Positions 5,422 to 38,347 of a DNA stretch of 64,000 bases are shown here, piece after piece; position 1 is the first letter of the stretch, and each line of letters starts with the position of its first letter. Location: the sequence record EU863408; one strand, 5' to 3'. The notes under the pieces were generated by a model. The model saw only the letters and a list, made by a program, of their open reading frames with translations, did no database searches and was not told the DNA's origin. Position numbers and translations under genes: made by a program. This DNA is from Escherichia phage JSE.

Positions 5422-6009
5422 CTAAATATCTAACCAAGACAAGTCAGATCCGCCCAAGATTTTTTCGACGGCGGATCTATTTTCTTGATGATATAAGTTA
5501 AAACATGGTATCCCATGTCTACGGGCAACATAAACAGCAATTCTAGTTCCTCCCGAAACGATTCCATTAACTTCTTTCGCCCAGAATATCACACAATCTA
5601 CAGGATCATCAAGTGTCTCACCTAAGACTTGAGCAACATTTCTAGAAAACAGATTTTGCATGTATAACGGTATAGAACGAGGATTATCATAAACGTGTTC
5701 TAATTCATCCATCGCCAGATTTTTTTGTTCTAAGGTTTGCCATGCAATAACATCATGACCGTTATGCTTGTGGTCATAAAACTTCCAATTTGGAATGAAA
5801 ATTTTTCTATAATCTGGATCGTAATACTTCATGAAAGCATTGTCCATACCGTAAGCCCCTCCAGAATGCGCTACAACGCGATTTTCTGACAATACCCTCC
5901 CAATGGTACTAGCCATTATCAAAATGTCGCTAGGCGCTTTTCTAGAGCCTATTAAAGCACATCTACGAAGTGGTTTTACTCCAAATAGATCTTGTAACTG
6001 GTCAAACAT
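5422..6009 (-). CDS. SLOG-fold (DprA/Smf-like Rossmann) domain protein
   Basis: 195 aa; LIGSRKAPSD and VVAHSGGAYGMDNAF resemble the DprA/SLOG nucleotide-binding core; occupies the variable slot after gene 24 where T4 has rnlB. Confidence 0.45.
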   Translation of the reverse strand: MFDQLQDLFGVKPLRRCALIGSRKAPSDILIMASTIGRVLSENRVVAHSGGAYGMDNAFMKYYDPDYRKIFIPNWKFYDHKHNGHDVIAWQTLEQKNLAMDELEHVYDNPRSIPLYMQNLFSRNVAQVLGETLDDPVDCVIFWAKEVNGIVSGGTRIAVYVARRHGIPCFNLYHQENRSAVEKILGGSDLSWLDI

Positions 6010-6161
6010 AATATTTCCTCCATAGAAAGCAATATCATACTACAAGTTAATAACAAATACAAGTATCCGCGTAGCGGAAGCGAGCACAGCGAGCAATAAA
6101 ACACTTCCAGTAATTGATTAATAAATGTTCGAAACAAATTTTTATTATTCTATAAGATAAG

Positions 6162-13452: not shown

Positions 13453-14223
13453 ATGAATATTATCCGAATAAAACTGCCGGAAGGTGTGCAGAGATTTAAA
13501 CCATTCACGGTAAAAGATTATAGAGATTTCCTTCTGGTGTCAACTGAAATTAAGATGAATCCAGAAGAAGAACAAACGATTCTGGATGAGCTATTAGAAG
13601 AAATATATCCAGAAGTAGATCCGGCATTTCGTGAATATATTTTCCTGAATGTCTTTACTAGCTCAATTGGTAAAACAAAGATACCGCTTTGTTTTACTTG
13701 CCCGACTTGCAACAAAGAAAGAAAAATGTTGCTTAACTTACAGGTTGAAGCACTAAAACCAATCGTTCTAGAGGCCGCAGGGCTTAAAATAACTTTCCGG
13801 TATGTTAAACCATCAACCGACTATGCAAAAACGTTTCTGGATGCGATAGAGCGTGTATCTGATGGTATTAATGATTATCTATGGACTGAATTACCGGAAG
13901 AAGTTAGAGAACAGGTTATCGATTCAATCTCATTTGCTGAATTTGAAGAAGTTGTTAAGCAGATGCACACAATCAAGATCGAACAAAAGATATCTTGTTG
14001 TGAAAGTCATGACCTGAAATACATAGGTCTTCTTCCATTATTCAAATTGTTGTTGAATCCAGATGAGTTATTCATCTTTTATCGAATAAACCATCTATTG
14101 GCAAAATCAAATTATTCTATCAGTGATCTTATGGATATGTTACCGATTGAGAGAAACATTGCACTGACACTGGTCGAGAAAGACGTAAAAGAGGCAAATA
14201 ATGCAAAGAACGGGGTTTCCTAA
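13453..14223 (+). CDS. 51: baseplate hub assembly catalyst gp51
   Basis: 256 aa, T4 order 26-51-27; TATAAATA late promoter at 13425-13432. Confidence 0.85.
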   Translation: MNIIRIKLPEGVQRFKPFTVKDYRDFLLVSTEIKMNPEEEQTILDELLEEIYPEVDPAFREYIFLNVFTSSIGKTKIPLCFTCPTCNKERKMLLNLQVEALKPIVLEAAGLKITFRYVKPSTDYAKTFLDAIERVSDGINDYLWTELPEEVREQVIDSISFAEFEEVVKQMHTIKIEQKISCCESHDLKYIGLLPLFKLLLNPDELFIFYRINHLLAKSNYSISDLMDMLPIERNIALTLVEKDVKEANNAKNGVS

Positions 14224-15311
14224 TGTCTCAATAAAACTTTATCAGGATTATGAGGCATTTCTAAATCATCGCTTTATAGAGTTGGGTGCTACCTTTGTTA
14301 CAATGACTCTGCGTGATTCGATTCGTGGGGTGAATGAAGGATTGTTGCAATTCTATGATAATAAGGCGATGCATACAAAATTAAACGGGAGAGAGATCAT
14401 TCAGATTTCGCTATCCACTGCTAATACAGATGAAGTGTTTAACCGAATCTATGGGATCTCTCATAGTAATGTAACAATTGACCAAAAATCCGACAACATT
14501 TTAACATTCCAGTTAAAGAGCTATCACGAAACACTAAACCTTAAATTTTCTCGCTCATTGACAAATAACGCGGTTAATAACGTAACTAGCATGATTGATG
14601 CCATCTATAAGGAAGTTCCTTTATGGAAACCTACTATAAAGGGTGATAACGTTGTTATTCCTCGTTGTCCGTGGGTTAGTACCATAAATGACTATATGGA
14701 TTTTGTTAGGGCATACGGGCAAAGCGTAGAAACCGAGTCTTTCGTGTATTGCTGGGAAGATTTTGATGGTATAACGATTGCTGGATACGATACAATATTA
14801 AAAAATGAGCCAATACCAGCTATAATCTGTGAGCCTAGACTCATGGGGCAATTTATTGATATGTCGCCTAATCTGATGGTTTTTAATTTTGAGTGGCAGA
14901 CTAAGAGCAATGCTAAAGTTAAAAAATTCATTTAGCAATGTGACATACACCACTATTGATTTTGTTACTAAGCAGTATAATAAAATTATTGTTGGTAATG
15001 GGGATAATATTGCACACTTTGCTCATGGTGGCGCTTATGGCGATTTAACTTATAAGAATGCGTTTTTGGAAGGTTCTAAACTTGCCACAATAGAACAATA
15101 TGATTCATATGCTACCGCCGTGTGTCACGGTAATTTTTCGTTGCGCCCCGGTATGGTTATTCGATTCTTTGATGAGAAGCAACAAGCACGCAATGATTTT
15201 ATTGTTGACGAAGTGGTGCATGAAATTAGCCGAGAGCAATCATTAACTCACCTGTATATGATCGGTAACAGCGAAGAATTACAGGAAGTCAAATTTGAAG
15301 GTAAGATATAA
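14201..15311 (+). CDS. 27: baseplate hub subunit gp27, split by a frameshift at an A6 tract (14921-14926)
   Basis: Track ORFs 14201..14935 and 14889..15311 are the N- and C-terminal parts of T4 gp27; removing one A makes a single reading frame. Confidence 0.8.
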
Positions 15312-23580: not shown

Positions 23581-23609
23581 ATTATAGGGGATCGATGATC
23601 CCCTGTCAA
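23581..23609 (-). promoter_or_regulatory. early promoter with stem-loop spacer (PeSL-like)
   Basis: TTGACA, palindromic spacer GGGGATCATCGATCCCC, TATAAT, then AAGGAG site. Confidence 0.6.
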
Positions 23610-25715: not shown

Positions 25716-25744
25716 ATTATAGGGGATCGGTGATCCCCTGTCAA
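25716..25744 (-). promoter_or_regulatory. early promoter with stem-loop spacer (PeSL-like)
   Basis: TTGACA, GGGGATCACCGATCCCC, TATAAT. Confidence 0.6.
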
Positions 25745-25750
25745 CAACTT

Positions 25751-26062
25751 TTAGCGACGGCGACGATGTTTTTTGCGAGTTGCCTTTTTGTATGCTTTAT
25801 ATGCCTTTTTACCGTTTTTATATGCTTTTTTGGTATATGATTGATTTTTCTTATTGTTTTTGTATGTTTCCCGGTCAGTATTAATTTCGTTACATTCCAC
25901 GAAACGGTGTCGATGTTCTTGTGGTATGATCAAACATTTATCATAATTAACCATTTCGTTTTTCGTTGTTTGTGGTTTCTTTGGTGTGTTGTTTGCACTA
26001 ACAGACCCAGCAAAGAGAATGAGTATAGCGGTCATTAACGCAAACATTGTTTTCTTAATCAT
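25751..26062 (-). CDS. secreted small basic protein
   Basis: N-terminal signal peptide; lysine/arginine-rich C-terminus. Confidence 0.5.
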   Translation of the reverse strand: MIKKTMFALMTAILILFAGSVSANNTPKKPQTTKNEMVNYDKCLIIPQEHRHRFVECNEINTDRETYKNNKKNQSYTKKAYKNGKKAYKAYKKATRKKHRRRR

Positions 26063-26120
26063 AATATTCTCCTTTAGTTTCTGCGGGAGTGTGAATATAA
26101 CACTCCCTTAATATTTTGTA

Positions 26121-26402
26121 TTATTCGTGATTAGTTTCGATGTTGTGCATTTTGCACCAGTTCAGCCAATCGCCCAGATCTTGATAGTTAATGCTTTTAT
26201 CTGCTGCCATCGTTTTTGTCTTGATACCCATATGTGCGTTATGAGTAAGCATTTTTACAGTGAACTCGATTTTATCGCCTTTAGCTTTAACATCAACCAG
26301 TTTGGTCCACTGGCTACCAGCACCGCGAATGTTCATACCAACGATGTTTCCGATGTATGCTTCTTTGTTTTTCAGGATTTCGGTTGCTTTGATGAATTTC
26401 AT
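26121..26402 (-). CDS. hypothetical protein
   Basis: 93 aa ORF with promoter cassette at 26436-26464. Confidence 0.5.
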   Translation of the reverse strand: MKFIKATEILKNKEAYIGNIVGMNIRGAGSQWTKLVDVKAKGDKIEFTVKMLTHNAHMGIKTKTMAADKSINYQDLGDWLNWCKMHNIETNHE

Positions 26403-26743: not shown

Positions 26744-26783
26744 TGTTTGATTCTCCTAAGTGGTATCTCGTCTTGATGGGTGT

Positions 26784-26812
26784 ATTATGCTATACACAGG
26801 ATCTGGTGTCAA
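26784..26812 (-). promoter_or_regulatory. early promoter (TTGACA-N17-CATAAT)
   Basis: Same cassette family. Confidence 0.5.
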
Positions 26813-26835
26813 TGCCTTTTTTAAAATTTTATGCA

Positions 26836-26862
26836 ATAAAAAAGCCGACGCTAAGGTCGGCT
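26836..26862 (-). terminator. rho-independent terminator
   Basis: AGCCGACC-TTAG-CGTCGGCT then T7 on minus strand. Confidence 0.6.
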
Positions 26863-26869
26863 AATAAAA

Positions 26870-27177
26870 TCATTTAGACAAATAATCATTCAGTGCAATC
26901 CGGTCGGCGTATGCTGGTGTTACGTCAATCGCAATCACTTTAACGCGTGCTTTCTTGCGACCTGGGTTTTCTCGTAACCAGTGCTCATGACCGTGAACAT
27001 TTTATACTGCGATGCTTCTTCGAAAGTACGGATCGGACAAGGGTAATCAGCGTAAAGGATCTCTAGGTCTTCGGTGATGTAAAAATATACATCATAATTA
27101 CTGTTCTCTAGTTTAAGCAGAGACTTTCGGAACATTGGGAGATTTTCGCGGGTAAATTCAAAGATATTATCTTTCAT
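26870..27177 (-). pseudogene. HxHW-family small protein, frameshifted at an A4/T4 tract (26997-27000)
   Basis: Track ORF 26935..27177 carries the family N-terminus (YFYITEDLEI); the C-terminal HGHEHW...VIAIDVTPAYAD lies in another frame. Confidence 0.4.
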
Positions 27178-29195: not shown

Positions 29196-29224
29196 ATTAT
29201 AGGGGATCACCGATCCCCTGTCAA
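29196..29224 (-). promoter_or_regulatory. early promoter with stem-loop spacer (PeSL-like)
   Basis: TTGACA, GGGGATCGGTGATCCCC, TATAAT. Confidence 0.6.
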
Positions 29225-29229
29225 CAACT

Positions 29230-29524
29230 TTATAATGCTTTATATGCGTATTTCATAAATTTGTCTGCCACTTCATTGGCATGTTCAGATTCTACGCCTG
29301 ATTCGAGAACAATAGCTAGGTCGGTTTCGTCATTCCCGCCGTACCAATGATTTGATGTTCGATTTTTTTCAATTGGAAATTGGTCACTTTTATCTGTGCG
29401 ACAAAATACATCTAAATGCTCATCGATGTAAAAGATCCAATCTTCATAAAGAATAACGGGTATTAGCAAGATTTTTATTGCCTTCAACGAAAGGTTCGGC
29501 TACAAACAAATTAGTATGTTCCAT
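29230..29524 (-). pseudogene. HxHW-family small protein, frameshifted at an A5/T5 tract (29472-29476)
   Basis: ATG at 29524 with TATAAT and GAGG upstream reads 26 codons then stops; the family body (IFYIDEHL ... SNHW ...) continues in the +1 frame. Confidence 0.4.
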
Positions 29525-29540
29525 AGTAATTTCCTCAAAA

Positions 29541-29732
29541 TTATACAGCTTCGTAAACTTCCCAATGTCCAACACCAGCACGCTTAACGAAAAGGTTTTC
29601 TTTGATGTTATTCATAAACGTCTGGATGGATTTAATGCGGTTTGAAGGTTTCCATTCTTCGTTGGAATTGCGGCGATACATAATAACATTACCAGTTCGC
29701 TTATATTCAGCAACCATTTTAAGACAACACAT
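29541..29732 (-). CDS. hypothetical protein
   Basis: 63 aa ORF. Confidence 0.35.
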   Translation of the reverse strand: MCCLKMVAEYKRTGNVIMYRRNSNEEWKPSNRIKSIQTFMNNIKENLFVKRAGVGHWEVYEAV

Positions 29733-29788
29733 AATATTATCCTCAATTTGTGGGAGAGTATTACCCCTCCCGATGTTGTTATATTACA

Positions 29789-30109
29789 TTACACAAAATG
29801 GCGTGTCAATGCTTCTTTTGCGGTTCCGCTAAGACTTTCGATCTCGCCTGGCATAACATCAACCGCCAGAACTTCTACAACATCCTCGGACCCTAACCAG
29901 TGAGTATGGCCTTTGTAGAACTTGATAACCAGACTACCTTCCTCGTCCCATTTAACGCTATCGCTAGCCCACCACACATCACCGTCGATAAAGTTGATGT
30001 AAAGCACACTACGCCACATTGAATTAATTACTTTCAATACTGCGCCTTTCATCTCTTCCACGGTATGGTCTTCCATTTTGAAGACCTCACCTACCTGAAC
30101 TTTTGCCAT
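29789..30109 (-). CDS. HxHW-family small protein
   Basis: GHTHW ... VLAVDVMPGE; start placed at ATG 30109 right after the stop of the upstream ORF. Confidence 0.5.
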   Translation of the reverse strand: MAKVQVGEVFKMEDHTVEEMKGAVLKVINSMWRSVLYINFIDGDVWWASDSVKWDEEGSLVIKFYKGHTHWLGSEDVVEVLAVDVMPGEIESLSGTAKEALTRHFV

Positions 30110-31005: not shown

Positions 31006-31034
31006 AGTATAGGGGATACGTGATCCCCTGTCAA
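31006..31034 (-). promoter_or_regulatory. early promoter with stem-loop spacer (PeSL-like)
   Basis: TTGACA, GGGGATCACGTATCCCC, TATACT. Confidence 0.5.
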
Positions 31035-37162: not shown

Positions 37163-38347
37163 TTACCAATCAATCTTATCAGCCGGAATCAGTTTCTTAT
37201 AATTCCGTAGATAGTAAGTTTTCATTGAAGCCAGAATACGGTCATAATCAAGACCATCAAATGCAATCATCAGACACATGAAAATATATGATTGTGCATC
37301 ACCATGTTTACGTGATTCGATAGTCGCATTGGATGCATATGTCTTTCTGTCTTCTCCCGCGTGTGCGTTATAAAATTCTGTTGCTGTCGTAAAGGCATTG
37401 CGAAGAATGGACCTGAATGCTTCCTCGAATAGCTCAATTCGTTCCAGTGCTTCCGGTTCGCCTTCATATGCAGCACGCAAATCATCGGTTTCGCTTTCTA
37501 CGACATAGTAGATCAGGTTATTAGGAAACATCGATGTGTTTTTAATGTTATGCACACCAATATACCATTCACTCTTCACCTTGAACATTTGACCGTCTTT
37601 AGTGCGTGCAACAATTCCTTCGATACCTTCTGCGGTCCGAACTTCATCAAGAATATTGCTAAAACGCGCTGAATCAACCTGTAACGCATTTACCAGATGA
37701 GGACGTAGGATTGCGTCAGCAAATAGCATTTGATGCGGTACGTACTCTCCTGTGACGTTATGGCGTACATTCAGAAGTGTTAGCGACGGTTCAGAATATT
37801 CTACAACAATTCGGTTGCTGGGTGCTGTATATTCAAAGTTGAAAGTATAATCAGACCCAATATCGGCGATCTTAGCGCGTAGATCCGCATACTTCTCTGA
37901 ATACAGAAGACCGTTTGCTCTCTCTGCCTGGCTTGAGTACAAGGCCGCTTTAGACTTCAACTGAACATAGCCGTTATCAATGTATGTGCTTACTAGACTA
38001 CCGTCCATTTTGTCCATGACCATTTCCACATCTTCCGGCTTAAAGCGAGCGCGATCATTCTCACCCAAATTAAAAAACTTCTCCATAGGACGAGATGCAA
38101 TGCGGACAGGTCGGTCTTTATCATCGATTTCAAACATGATCCCGCGACACTCTAACGCATCTGGTTTATTCCACATTTCCGGTTTGCTCAAGTACAGATA
38201 ACTAAAAATGCGCATACGGGTTTGCATCGCCGTAATTTCATCTTTGTAATAGAACGTATCAGATCCGTCACATAGTGCCATCAGATTTTTGAACAATGCT
38301 AAAACTTTTTTTGTTGTTTTCTTTTGTTGACATAATTTGTGTTCCAT
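37163..38347 (-). CDS. rnlA: RNA ligase 1
   Basis: Colinear with T4 Rnl1 (PDALECRGIMFE, RIASRPMEKFFNL). Confidence 0.9.
   Translation of the reverse strand: MEHKLCQQKKTTKKVLALFKNLMALCDGSDTFYYKDEITAMQTRMRIFSYLYLSKPEMWNKPDALECRGIMFEIDDKDRPVRIASRPMEKFFNLGENDRARFKPEDVEMVMDKMDGSLVSTYIDNGYVQLKSKAALYSSQAERANGLLYSEKYADLRAKIADIGSDYTFNFEYTAPSNRIVVEYSEPSLTLLNVRHNVTGEYVPHQMLFADAILRPHLVNALQVDSARFSNILDEVRTAEGIEGIVARTKDGQMFKVKSEWYIGVHNIKNTSMFPNNLIYYVVESETDDLRAAYEGEPEALERIELFEEAFRSILRNAFTTATEFYNAHAGEDRKTYASNATIESRKHGDAQSYIFMCLMIAFDGLDYDRILASMKTYYLRNYKKLIPADKIDW

What the first reader, a model, noticed from the sequence alone, without database searches (positions are those of the whole stretch)
29465..29524. 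Second frameshifted HxHW-family gene at an A5/T5 tract
An ATG at 29524 with TATAAT and GAGG upstream opens a frame that terminates after 26 codons, while the family body (IFYIDEHL...SNHW...) continues in the +1 frame from about 29487 to 29230. Removing one A from the run at 29472-29476 joins them. Together with the gp27 and 26997 cases, this makes three frame breaks, all at A/T homopolymers.
Basis: seen in the sequence. Interest (0 to 1): 0.4.

Follow-up and report, generated by a model that had tools for sequence, protein, structure and literature searches.

The report
One-base frameshift in small phage gene
A small gene of unknown function in this RB49-like (T4-type) coliphage is broken by one extra C that no related genome carries; it is most likely a sequence-record error or a private knockout mutation, and it is ordinary.

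Summary
The frame break is real in the window. ATG 29524 opens a 26-codon ORF (stop 29446-29444), and the rest of the gene runs in the +1 frame to 29230.

The window is a Krischvirus (RB49-like T4-type phage) and the gene is the orthologue of RB49 ORF206 (97 aa, phrog_15965, function unknown). In alignments the A5 tract (29472-29476) is identical in relatives with intact genes. The extra base is a C in ACCCG (minus strand 29460-29458), where relatives have ACCG.

All 52 related phage records have one base fewer in the 71-nt stretch spanning the site. The aligned subset and three IMG/VR and metagenome contigs show the missing base is this C.

Nothing suggests programmed frameshifting: there is no conservation, slippery site or structure.

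The same window has three more window-specific one-base run-length changes that break genes: gp27 (an essential baseplate hub protein), the ORF197 orthologue, and the denA/rnlA overlap. Four comparator genomes have roughly 0-2 each.

My reading is a sequencing or assembly error (about 0.6) or a private null mutation in a dispensable gene (about 0.33). Interest is low.

The parts
29444..29524 (-). N-terminal fragment ORF: ATG 29524-29522, 26 codons, stop TGA 29446-29444. Codons 1-22 are the true N-terminus of the ORF206 orthologue. Codons 23-26 (RYSL) are out-of-frame junk.
29458..29460 (-). The lesion: CCC on the coding strand (GGG on the + strand) where all relatives examined at base level have one base fewer (ACC-GTT, ACG-GTT or ACA-ATC, i.e. 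Thr22-Val/Ile23).
29230..29457 (-). Body of the ORF206 orthologue (codons 23-97, VILYEDWIFYIDEHL...SNHW...KYAYKAL, stop TAA 29232-29230). It is in the +1 frame relative to the ATG at 29524. It encodes all four predicted beta-strands and the C-terminal helix.
29472..29476 (-). It has the same length and sequence in the near-identical relatives aligned (RB49, ELT3, ECD7 and others), so it is not the site of the frameshift.
29533..29536 (-). GAGG Shine-Dalgarno sequence, 8 nt upstream of the ATG. It is conserved in the aligned relatives.
29540..29545 (-). TATAAT hexamer that contains the TAA stop (29543-29541) of the upstream ORF207 orthologue. No -35 partner was found, so it is probably not a promoter. 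ORF206 is probably co-transcribed with ORF207.
29541..29732 (-). ORF207 orthologue (63 aa), the upstream gene in the same transcription unit. It ends 16 nt before the ORF206 ATG.
29781..29809 (-). Promoter-like site (TTGACA-17-TAATAT, 10 of 12) upstream of ORF207. It is the likely early promoter for the ORF207-ORF206 pair.
   Evidence: consensus match only
29363..29369 (-). A7 run inside the gene body, its longest homopolymer. It is intact here. In an unrelated Logan assembly (L016) this run is A6 and gives a 68-aa truncated product (P0017).
29196..29224 (-). PeSL206/205 cassette just downstream of the gene's stop: TTGACA-GGGGATC-GGT-GATCCCC-TATAAT. It is a perfect sigma-70 promoter whose spacer is a stem-loop. 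It terminates ORF206 transcripts and drives ORF205.
   Evidence: Arbiol et al. 2010, PMC2839356

Best explanation
The window carries the orthologue of RB49 ORF206. This is a 97-aa early-region ORFan that sits between the ORF207 orthologue and the PeSL206/205 promoter/terminator cassette. One extra C (CC to CCC at 29458-29460) lies between codons 22 and 23. As written, translation from ATG 29524 leaves the conserved frame after Thr22, adds four junk residues and stops. All of the predicted folded part (four beta-strands, the HW motif, the C-terminal helix) stays untranslated.

The extra base is most likely a base-calling or assembly error in this genome record, and the phage itself probably encodes the normal 97-aa protein.

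Shown: the position and nature of the extra base, its absence from every relative examined, and the other run-length breaks in the window. Inferred: that it is an error rather than a real mutation.
For: - All 52 related phage records have 70 nt where the window has 71, and all 50 that carry any annotation list a protein-coding gene there (two records are unannotated).
- Base-level alignments of 13 fetched loci place the difference at the C run.
- The CCC form has no exact match in IMG/VR. A pattern that allows either form finds only the CC form, in 1 IMG/VR contig and 2 metagenome contigs.
- Removing the C restores four residues that are invariant in 15 orthologue clusters and gives a full-length match to phrog_15965.
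- The same window has an A5 to A6 insertion that splits gp27 (369 aa in four relatives) into 244-aa and 140-aa ORFs. Gene 27 is essential in T4 (established genetics), so at least one one-base insertion error in this record is very likely.
- Two more window-specific one-base run-length changes break the ORF197 orthologue and the denA tail.
- That makes 4 CDS-breaking private indels in about 46 kb of comparable sequence. RB49, ECD7, ELT3 and UPWr_E1 have about 0, 1, 1 and 1. My own rough, post hoc Poisson estimate, not a tool result, gives P about 0.007.
Against: - A 2-to-3 run is not a classic long-homopolymer error site.
- The window's total of private small indels is not far above the comparators: 14, against 5, 8, 10 and 12.
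- The gene is dispensable. Phage phiS lacks the whole ORF206-210 module, and another assembly has an independent frameshift in this gene. A real knockout would therefore be tolerated.
- No reads are available, so error and mutation cannot be separated from the sequence alone.
Confidence: 0.6

Rival explanations
1. The extra C is a genuine, strain-private frameshift mutation. This phage carries a null allele (pseudogene) of a non-essential hyperplastic-region ORFan and makes only a 26-aa peptide.
For: - Hyperplastic-region ORFans are gained, lost and replaced between close relatives (Arbiol et al. 2010, PMC2839356).
- phiS lacks the ORF206-210 module.
- A Logan contig has an independent A7 to A6 frameshift in the orthologue.
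- ELT3 (denA) and UPWr_E1 (pseT.3) also carry private frame breaks in accessory genes.
Against: - No independent sequence shares the CCC allele.
- It occurs in a record that also breaks essential gp27 by the same kind of one-base change, which argues for record quality rather than biology.
Confidence: 0.33
2. Programmed +1 ribosomal frameshifting, or transcriptional slippage, rejoins the two frames, so the split gene is a regulated recoding site.
For: There is only the formal geometry: a 54-nt overlap (29499-29446) in which a +1 shift would give a full-length product.
Against: - Every relative encodes the protein in a single frame, so nothing is conserved as a recoding signal.
- By inspection the zero-frame codons at the site (ACC CGU UAU UCU UUA UGA) offer no good +1 re-pairing. 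There is no rare or stop codon in the A site next to a slippery codon, and no Shine-Dalgarno-like stimulator upstream.
- The downstream RNA folds no better than shuffled sequence (z -1.23).
- A C3 run is too short for efficient polymerase slippage (established knowledge).
Confidence: 0.02
3. The body is still expressed as an N-terminally truncated protein (79 or 85 aa) from an internal TTG (29470 or 29487), so function is partly retained. This assumes the C is real.
For: - TTG 29470 has a weak AAGG 10 nt upstream.
- The predicted folded core begins at residue 22, and residues 1-10 are modelled with low confidence.
Against: - The TTG starts have weak or no Shine-Dalgarno sequence and lie inside a translated upstream ORF.
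- The N-terminal 22 residues are strongly conserved among orthologues, which implies they matter.
- No gene product with either sequence is on record.
Confidence: 0.05

Closest known systems
RB49 ORF206 (RB49p206, NP_891777.1) and its orthologues; PHROG family phrog_15965 (unknown function)
   Same: - 97% DNA identity over the gene.
- The same neighbours: ORF207 upstream, and PeSL206/205 plus ORF205 downstream.
- The repaired product matches the family profile over 1-97 of 97.
   Different: The window copy has one extra C after codon 22, so the annotated-style ORF is split. All other members seen are single ORFs of 96-106 aa, apart from an 86-aa form (P0016) and one Logan variant broken at the A7 run.
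PeSL-flanked ORFan cassettes of the hyperplastic regions of RB49/phi1-type phages (Arbiol et al. 2010, PMC2839356; Comeau et al. 2014, PMC4122927)
   Same: The gene lies in the alt-to-gene-30 hyperplastic region and is followed by a perfect PeSL (29196-29224). PeSL206/205 itself was shown there to be a very strong promoter.
   Different: PeSL-mediated change works by exchanging whole modules. The event here is a single-base indel inside an ORF and has nothing to do with PeSL recombination.
Homopolymer-length errors in deposited phage genomes
   Same: It is a one-base change in a mononucleotide run. It is private to one record and accompanied by similar changes that break other genes, including an essential one. 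The public ECD7 record likewise has a broken gp32.
   Different: The sequencing platform of the source is unknown to me.
Programmed +1 frameshift sites (E. coli prfB type)
   Same: Only the arrangement: a short zero-frame ORF overlapping a longer +1-frame ORF.
   Different: There is no conserved shift site, no in-frame stop next to a slippery codon, no Shine-Dalgarno-like stimulator, and no conservation in any relative.

Membership tests
RB49 ORF206 orthologous group / phrog_15965 | Full-length sequence match to the family profile | tested here: met
   After deleting the extra C: E 5.1e-62, residues 1-97 on profile positions 1-97 of 97. There are 17 homologous clusters at 69-99% identity.
RB49 ORF206 orthologous group / phrog_15965 | Conserved position between ORF207 and the PeSL206/205-ORF205 unit | tested here: met
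   Gene order matches the annotated RB49, ELT3 and ECD7 loci. The PeSL is at 29196-29224.
RB49 ORF206 orthologous group / phrog_15965 | Single uninterrupted ORF of about 96-106 codons | tested here: not met
   The window has a 26-codon ORF plus a +1-frame body. The cause is a one-base insertion.
   This protein and RB49 ORF206 have S-N-H-W. Most orthologue clusters have H-N-H-W. Only H59 and W60 are invariant across orthologues plus three paralogues.
   - hhalign of the orthologue profile against the 107-aa paralogue gives E 3.3e-5, probability 72%.
- Against the 106-aa and 92-aa paralogues it gives E 0.005 and 0.013, with probability below 10%.
- Foldseek matches the model to a 92-aa uncharacterised phage-JSE protein, likely a paralogue: E 5e-3, TM 0.55.
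- There are no cross-hits between their PHROGs for this protein.
Programmed ribosomal frameshift site | The frame change is conserved among relatives | tested here: not met
   All 52 phage records have one base fewer across the site, consistent with a single frame. The aligned loci and 3 IMG/VR or metagenome contigs confirm a single-frame gene.
Programmed ribosomal frameshift site | Slippery sequence with a stimulatory element (slow A-site codon, upstream SD-like element or downstream structure) | tested here: not met
   Inspection of 29499-29444 finds none. The downstream fold has z -1.23, with 22 of 200 shuffles folding as well.
   The A5 run at 29472-29476 is identical in relatives with intact genes. 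The change is C2 to C3 at 29458-29460.
PeSL regulatory cassette (Arbiol et al. 2010) | Strong sigma-70-like promoter combined with a stem-loop, placed between ORFans | tested here: met
   29196-29224 scores 12 of 12 for the promoter hexamers and has a GGGGATC/GATCCCC stem in the spacer. Function was not tested here; it was tested for RB49/phi1 PeSL206/205 in PMC2839356.

The most novel reading that the evidence does not exclude
The four private one-base run-length changes (gp27, ORF197, ORF206, denA/rnlA) are all real. They would reflect a phage population in which short mononucleotide runs switch accessory genes on and off at high frequency. Essential gp27 would then be rescued by low-level slippage, since only three copies are needed per virion.
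Probability: 0.02. Interest if true: 0.5.

Novelty: not a real feature. Interest (0 to 1): 0.07.

Why it matters
It matters mainly for annotation hygiene.
- The gene should be annotated as the ORF206 orthologue with a one-base frameshift at 29458-29460 (sequence to be verified), not as two ORFs and not as a recoding site.
- The window contains at least four such breaks, including essential gp27. Any downstream inference from split or truncated ORFs in this record should therefore be treated with caution.
- If the C is real, the only biological message is that one more dispensable ORFan of unknown function has been knocked out in one isolate.

Tried and rejected
- Exact-product look-ups for the truncated forms found nothing on record: the 85-aa and 79-aa bodies and the 244-aa gp27 fragment. 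The source record could not be identified this way.
- NC_012740 (phage JSE) is absent from the phage collection while Phi1 is present. BFVD lists JSE proteins of 92 and 88 aa, the same lengths as two window paralogues. I suspect the window is JSE but could not show it. The JSE genome paper is not held.
- Pfam gave no family for this protein or four paralogues.
- A literature search for frameshifts in RB49, phi1 or JSE found nothing relevant.
- The programmed-frameshift reading was rejected.

Full report
**What the window is.** The region matches Krischvirus genomes (RB49-like T4-type coliphages, Straboviridae) at 95-99% DNA identity. Genes around the finding lie on the minus strand. They sit in the hyperplastic early region between alt and gene 30 (DNA ligase). 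No record in the phage collection is identical to the window. NC_012740 (JSE) is missing from the collection while Phi1 is present, so the window may be JSE. This is a guess.

**Checking the observation.** On the minus strand, the ATG at 29524-29522 is preceded by GAGG (29536-29533) and TATAAT (29545-29540). It opens MEHTNLFVAEPFVEGNKNLANTRYSL and stops at TGA 29446-29444, which is 26 codons. A second ORF in the +1 frame, open from 29499 and listed from TTG 29487, runs to TAA 29232-29230. It encodes ...VILYEDWIFYIDEHL...SNHW...KYAYKAL. The A5 run is at 29472-29476. The described geometry is therefore real.

The TATAAT includes the TAA stop of the upstream 63-aa gene (the ORF207 orthologue, 29541-29732). 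A consensus scan found no -35 partner for it. The nearest promoter-like site upstream is at 29809-29781. ORF206 is therefore probably co-transcribed with ORF207.

**Where the frame is actually broken.**
- RB49, ELT3 and ECD7 each annotate one uninterrupted 97-codon gene here (RB49p206 and its equivalents).
- In the DNA alignment the A5 tract and its flanks are identical in all four sequences. The only indel is one extra C in the window: ACCCGTT against ACCGTT, at 29460-29458 on the coding strand.
- A 71-nt query spanning the site hit 52 phage records. Every one aligns 70 bases to the window's 71. All 50 records that carry annotation list a gene there; two records are unannotated.
- Thirteen fetched loci, including Logan and ENA metagenome contigs, show ACC-GTT, ACG-GTT or ACA-ATC (Thr-Val/Ile) at this point.
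- The CCC form has no exact match in IMG/VR. A pattern allowing either form found only the short form, in one IMG/VR contig and two metagenome contigs.
- Removing the C gives NK-NLANT-VILY, in which N18, L19, A20 and T22 are invariant over 15 orthologue clusters.
- The repaired protein matches phrog_15965 over its full length (E 5e-62).

**What the gene is.** The protein is a 97-aa ORFan with no Pfam family and no named homologue. An AlphaFold model built on 18 sequences is moderately confident (pLDDT 70.9, pTM 0.67). It shows a short N-terminal helix, four beta-strands (residues 22-26, 29-33, 39-42, 70-75) and a C-terminal helix (79-88). The HW motif sits in a low-confidence loop.

The frameshift falls exactly at the start of the first strand. 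As written, the whole folded part is lost.

Directly downstream lies a perfect PeSL cassette, TTGACA-GGGGATC-GGT-GATCCCC-TATAAT, at 29196-29224. It corresponds to PeSL206/205, which Arbiol et al. showed to be a very strong promoter (PMC2839356).

**Is it programmed?** No relative needs a frameshift here. By inspection, the zero-frame codons across the overlap offer no good +1 re-pairing, no stop or rare codon next to a slippery codon, and no Shine-Dalgarno-like stimulator. The downstream RNA is no more structured than shuffled controls (z -1.23). I reject recoding (about 2%).

**Error or mutation?** I compared the window with about 50 kb each of RB49, ECD7, ELT3 and UPWr_E1. Four one-base changes are private to the window and break annotated genes:
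- gp27: A5 to A6 at 14921-14926. This splits a 369-aa baseplate hub protein into 244-aa and 140-aa ORFs.
- ORF197 orthologue: T5 to T4 on the + strand at 27000-27003.
- ORF206 orthologue: the subject of this report.
- denA tail / rnlA start: T6 to T7 on the + strand at 38306-38312.

The comparators have about 0 (RB49), 1 (ECD7, in gp32), 1 (ELT3, in denA) and 1 (UPWr_E1, in pseT.3). A second small break in UPWr_E1 was not excluded. Gene 27 is essential in T4 (classical genetics), so the gp27 break is almost certainly a record error. That raises the odds that the other one-base changes in the same record are errors too.

Several points weigh the other way:
- A 2-to-3 run is not a typical homopolymer error site.
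- The window's total of private small indels (14) is not far above the others (5-12).
- The gene is clearly dispensable. phiS lacks the ORF206-210 module, and a Logan assembly has an independent A7 to A6 frameshift in this gene.

I put a record error at about 0.6 and a real private null mutation at about 0.33. The remainder is split between internal initiation and recoding.

**Verdict.** It is a single extra C, not an A/T-tract change. It is an ordinary frameshift, most probably an artefact, in a known ORFan of unknown function. Interest is low. Reads or an amplicon across the four sites would settle the question.

Noticed in passing
window 14201-15311 (+); A6 run 14921-14926: The gp27 baseplate hub gene is split into 244-aa and 140-aa ORFs by one extra A (A5 in RB49, ECD7, ELT3 and UPWr_E1). 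Gene 27 is essential in T4, so this is very probably a sequence error. If it were real it would need recoding.
   Followed up: partly
window 26873-27177 (-); T4 run 27000-27003 (+ strand): The ORF197 orthologue (102 aa in RB49, ECD7 and ELT3) is broken by loss of one base from an A5 run on its coding strand. The window ORF ends early at 80 aa.
   Followed up: partly
window 38271-38347 (-); T7 run 38306-38312 (+ strand): One extra base sits in the overlap between denA and rnlA. It shortens denA from 153 to 143 aa and puts the RB49-style rnlA start codon out of frame. An upstream ATG at 38347 is now in frame with the rnlA body.
   Followed up: partly
window 23581-23609, 25716-25744, 29196-29224, 31006-31034 (all -): There are four copies of the PeSL cassette TTGACA-GGGGATC-nnn-GATCCCC-TATAAT, against 0 expected by chance. 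These are the mobile promoter/terminator cassettes described by Arbiol et al. 2010.
   Followed up: partly
L016 (Logan SRR10692239_43744), gene at 1196-1402; corresponds to window A7 run 29363-29369: An independent frameshift of the same gene occurs in another dataset. A7 to A6 gives a 68-aa product (P0017) ending ...PIEKIEHQIIGTAGMTKPT. The window's A7 run is intact.
   Followed up: yes
L014 (PP449093.1, phage phiS): This phage goes straight from the HNH gene next to the ligase gene to the ORF205 orthologue. The ORF206-210 module is absent, which shows the gene is dispensable in nature.
   Followed up: partly
L006 about 47863 (ECD7); L007 about 12327 (ELT3); L008 about 12636 (UPWr_E1): Public relatives also carry private frame breaks: gp32 (essential) in ECD7, denA (+2) in ELT3, and the pseT.3 spanin gene (G6 run) in UPWr_E1. 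Single-base frame breaks are common in deposited Krischvirus genomes.
   Followed up: partly
window 5425-6137 (-), frame change near 6015: UPWr_E1 encodes a 238-aa DprA-like protein. The window has a frame change near 6015, and RB49 and ECD7 break at the corresponding position and annotate only the 195-aa C-terminal part. This looks like an older shared truncation or a different start.
   Followed up: no
window 25752-26121 and 26765-26861: The window lacks RB49 ORFs 192, 195, 196 and 196.1. It keeps the ORF211 and HNH ORF212 orthologues, which ECD7 and ELT3 lack. This is the module shuffling at PeSLs expected for this region.
   Followed up: no
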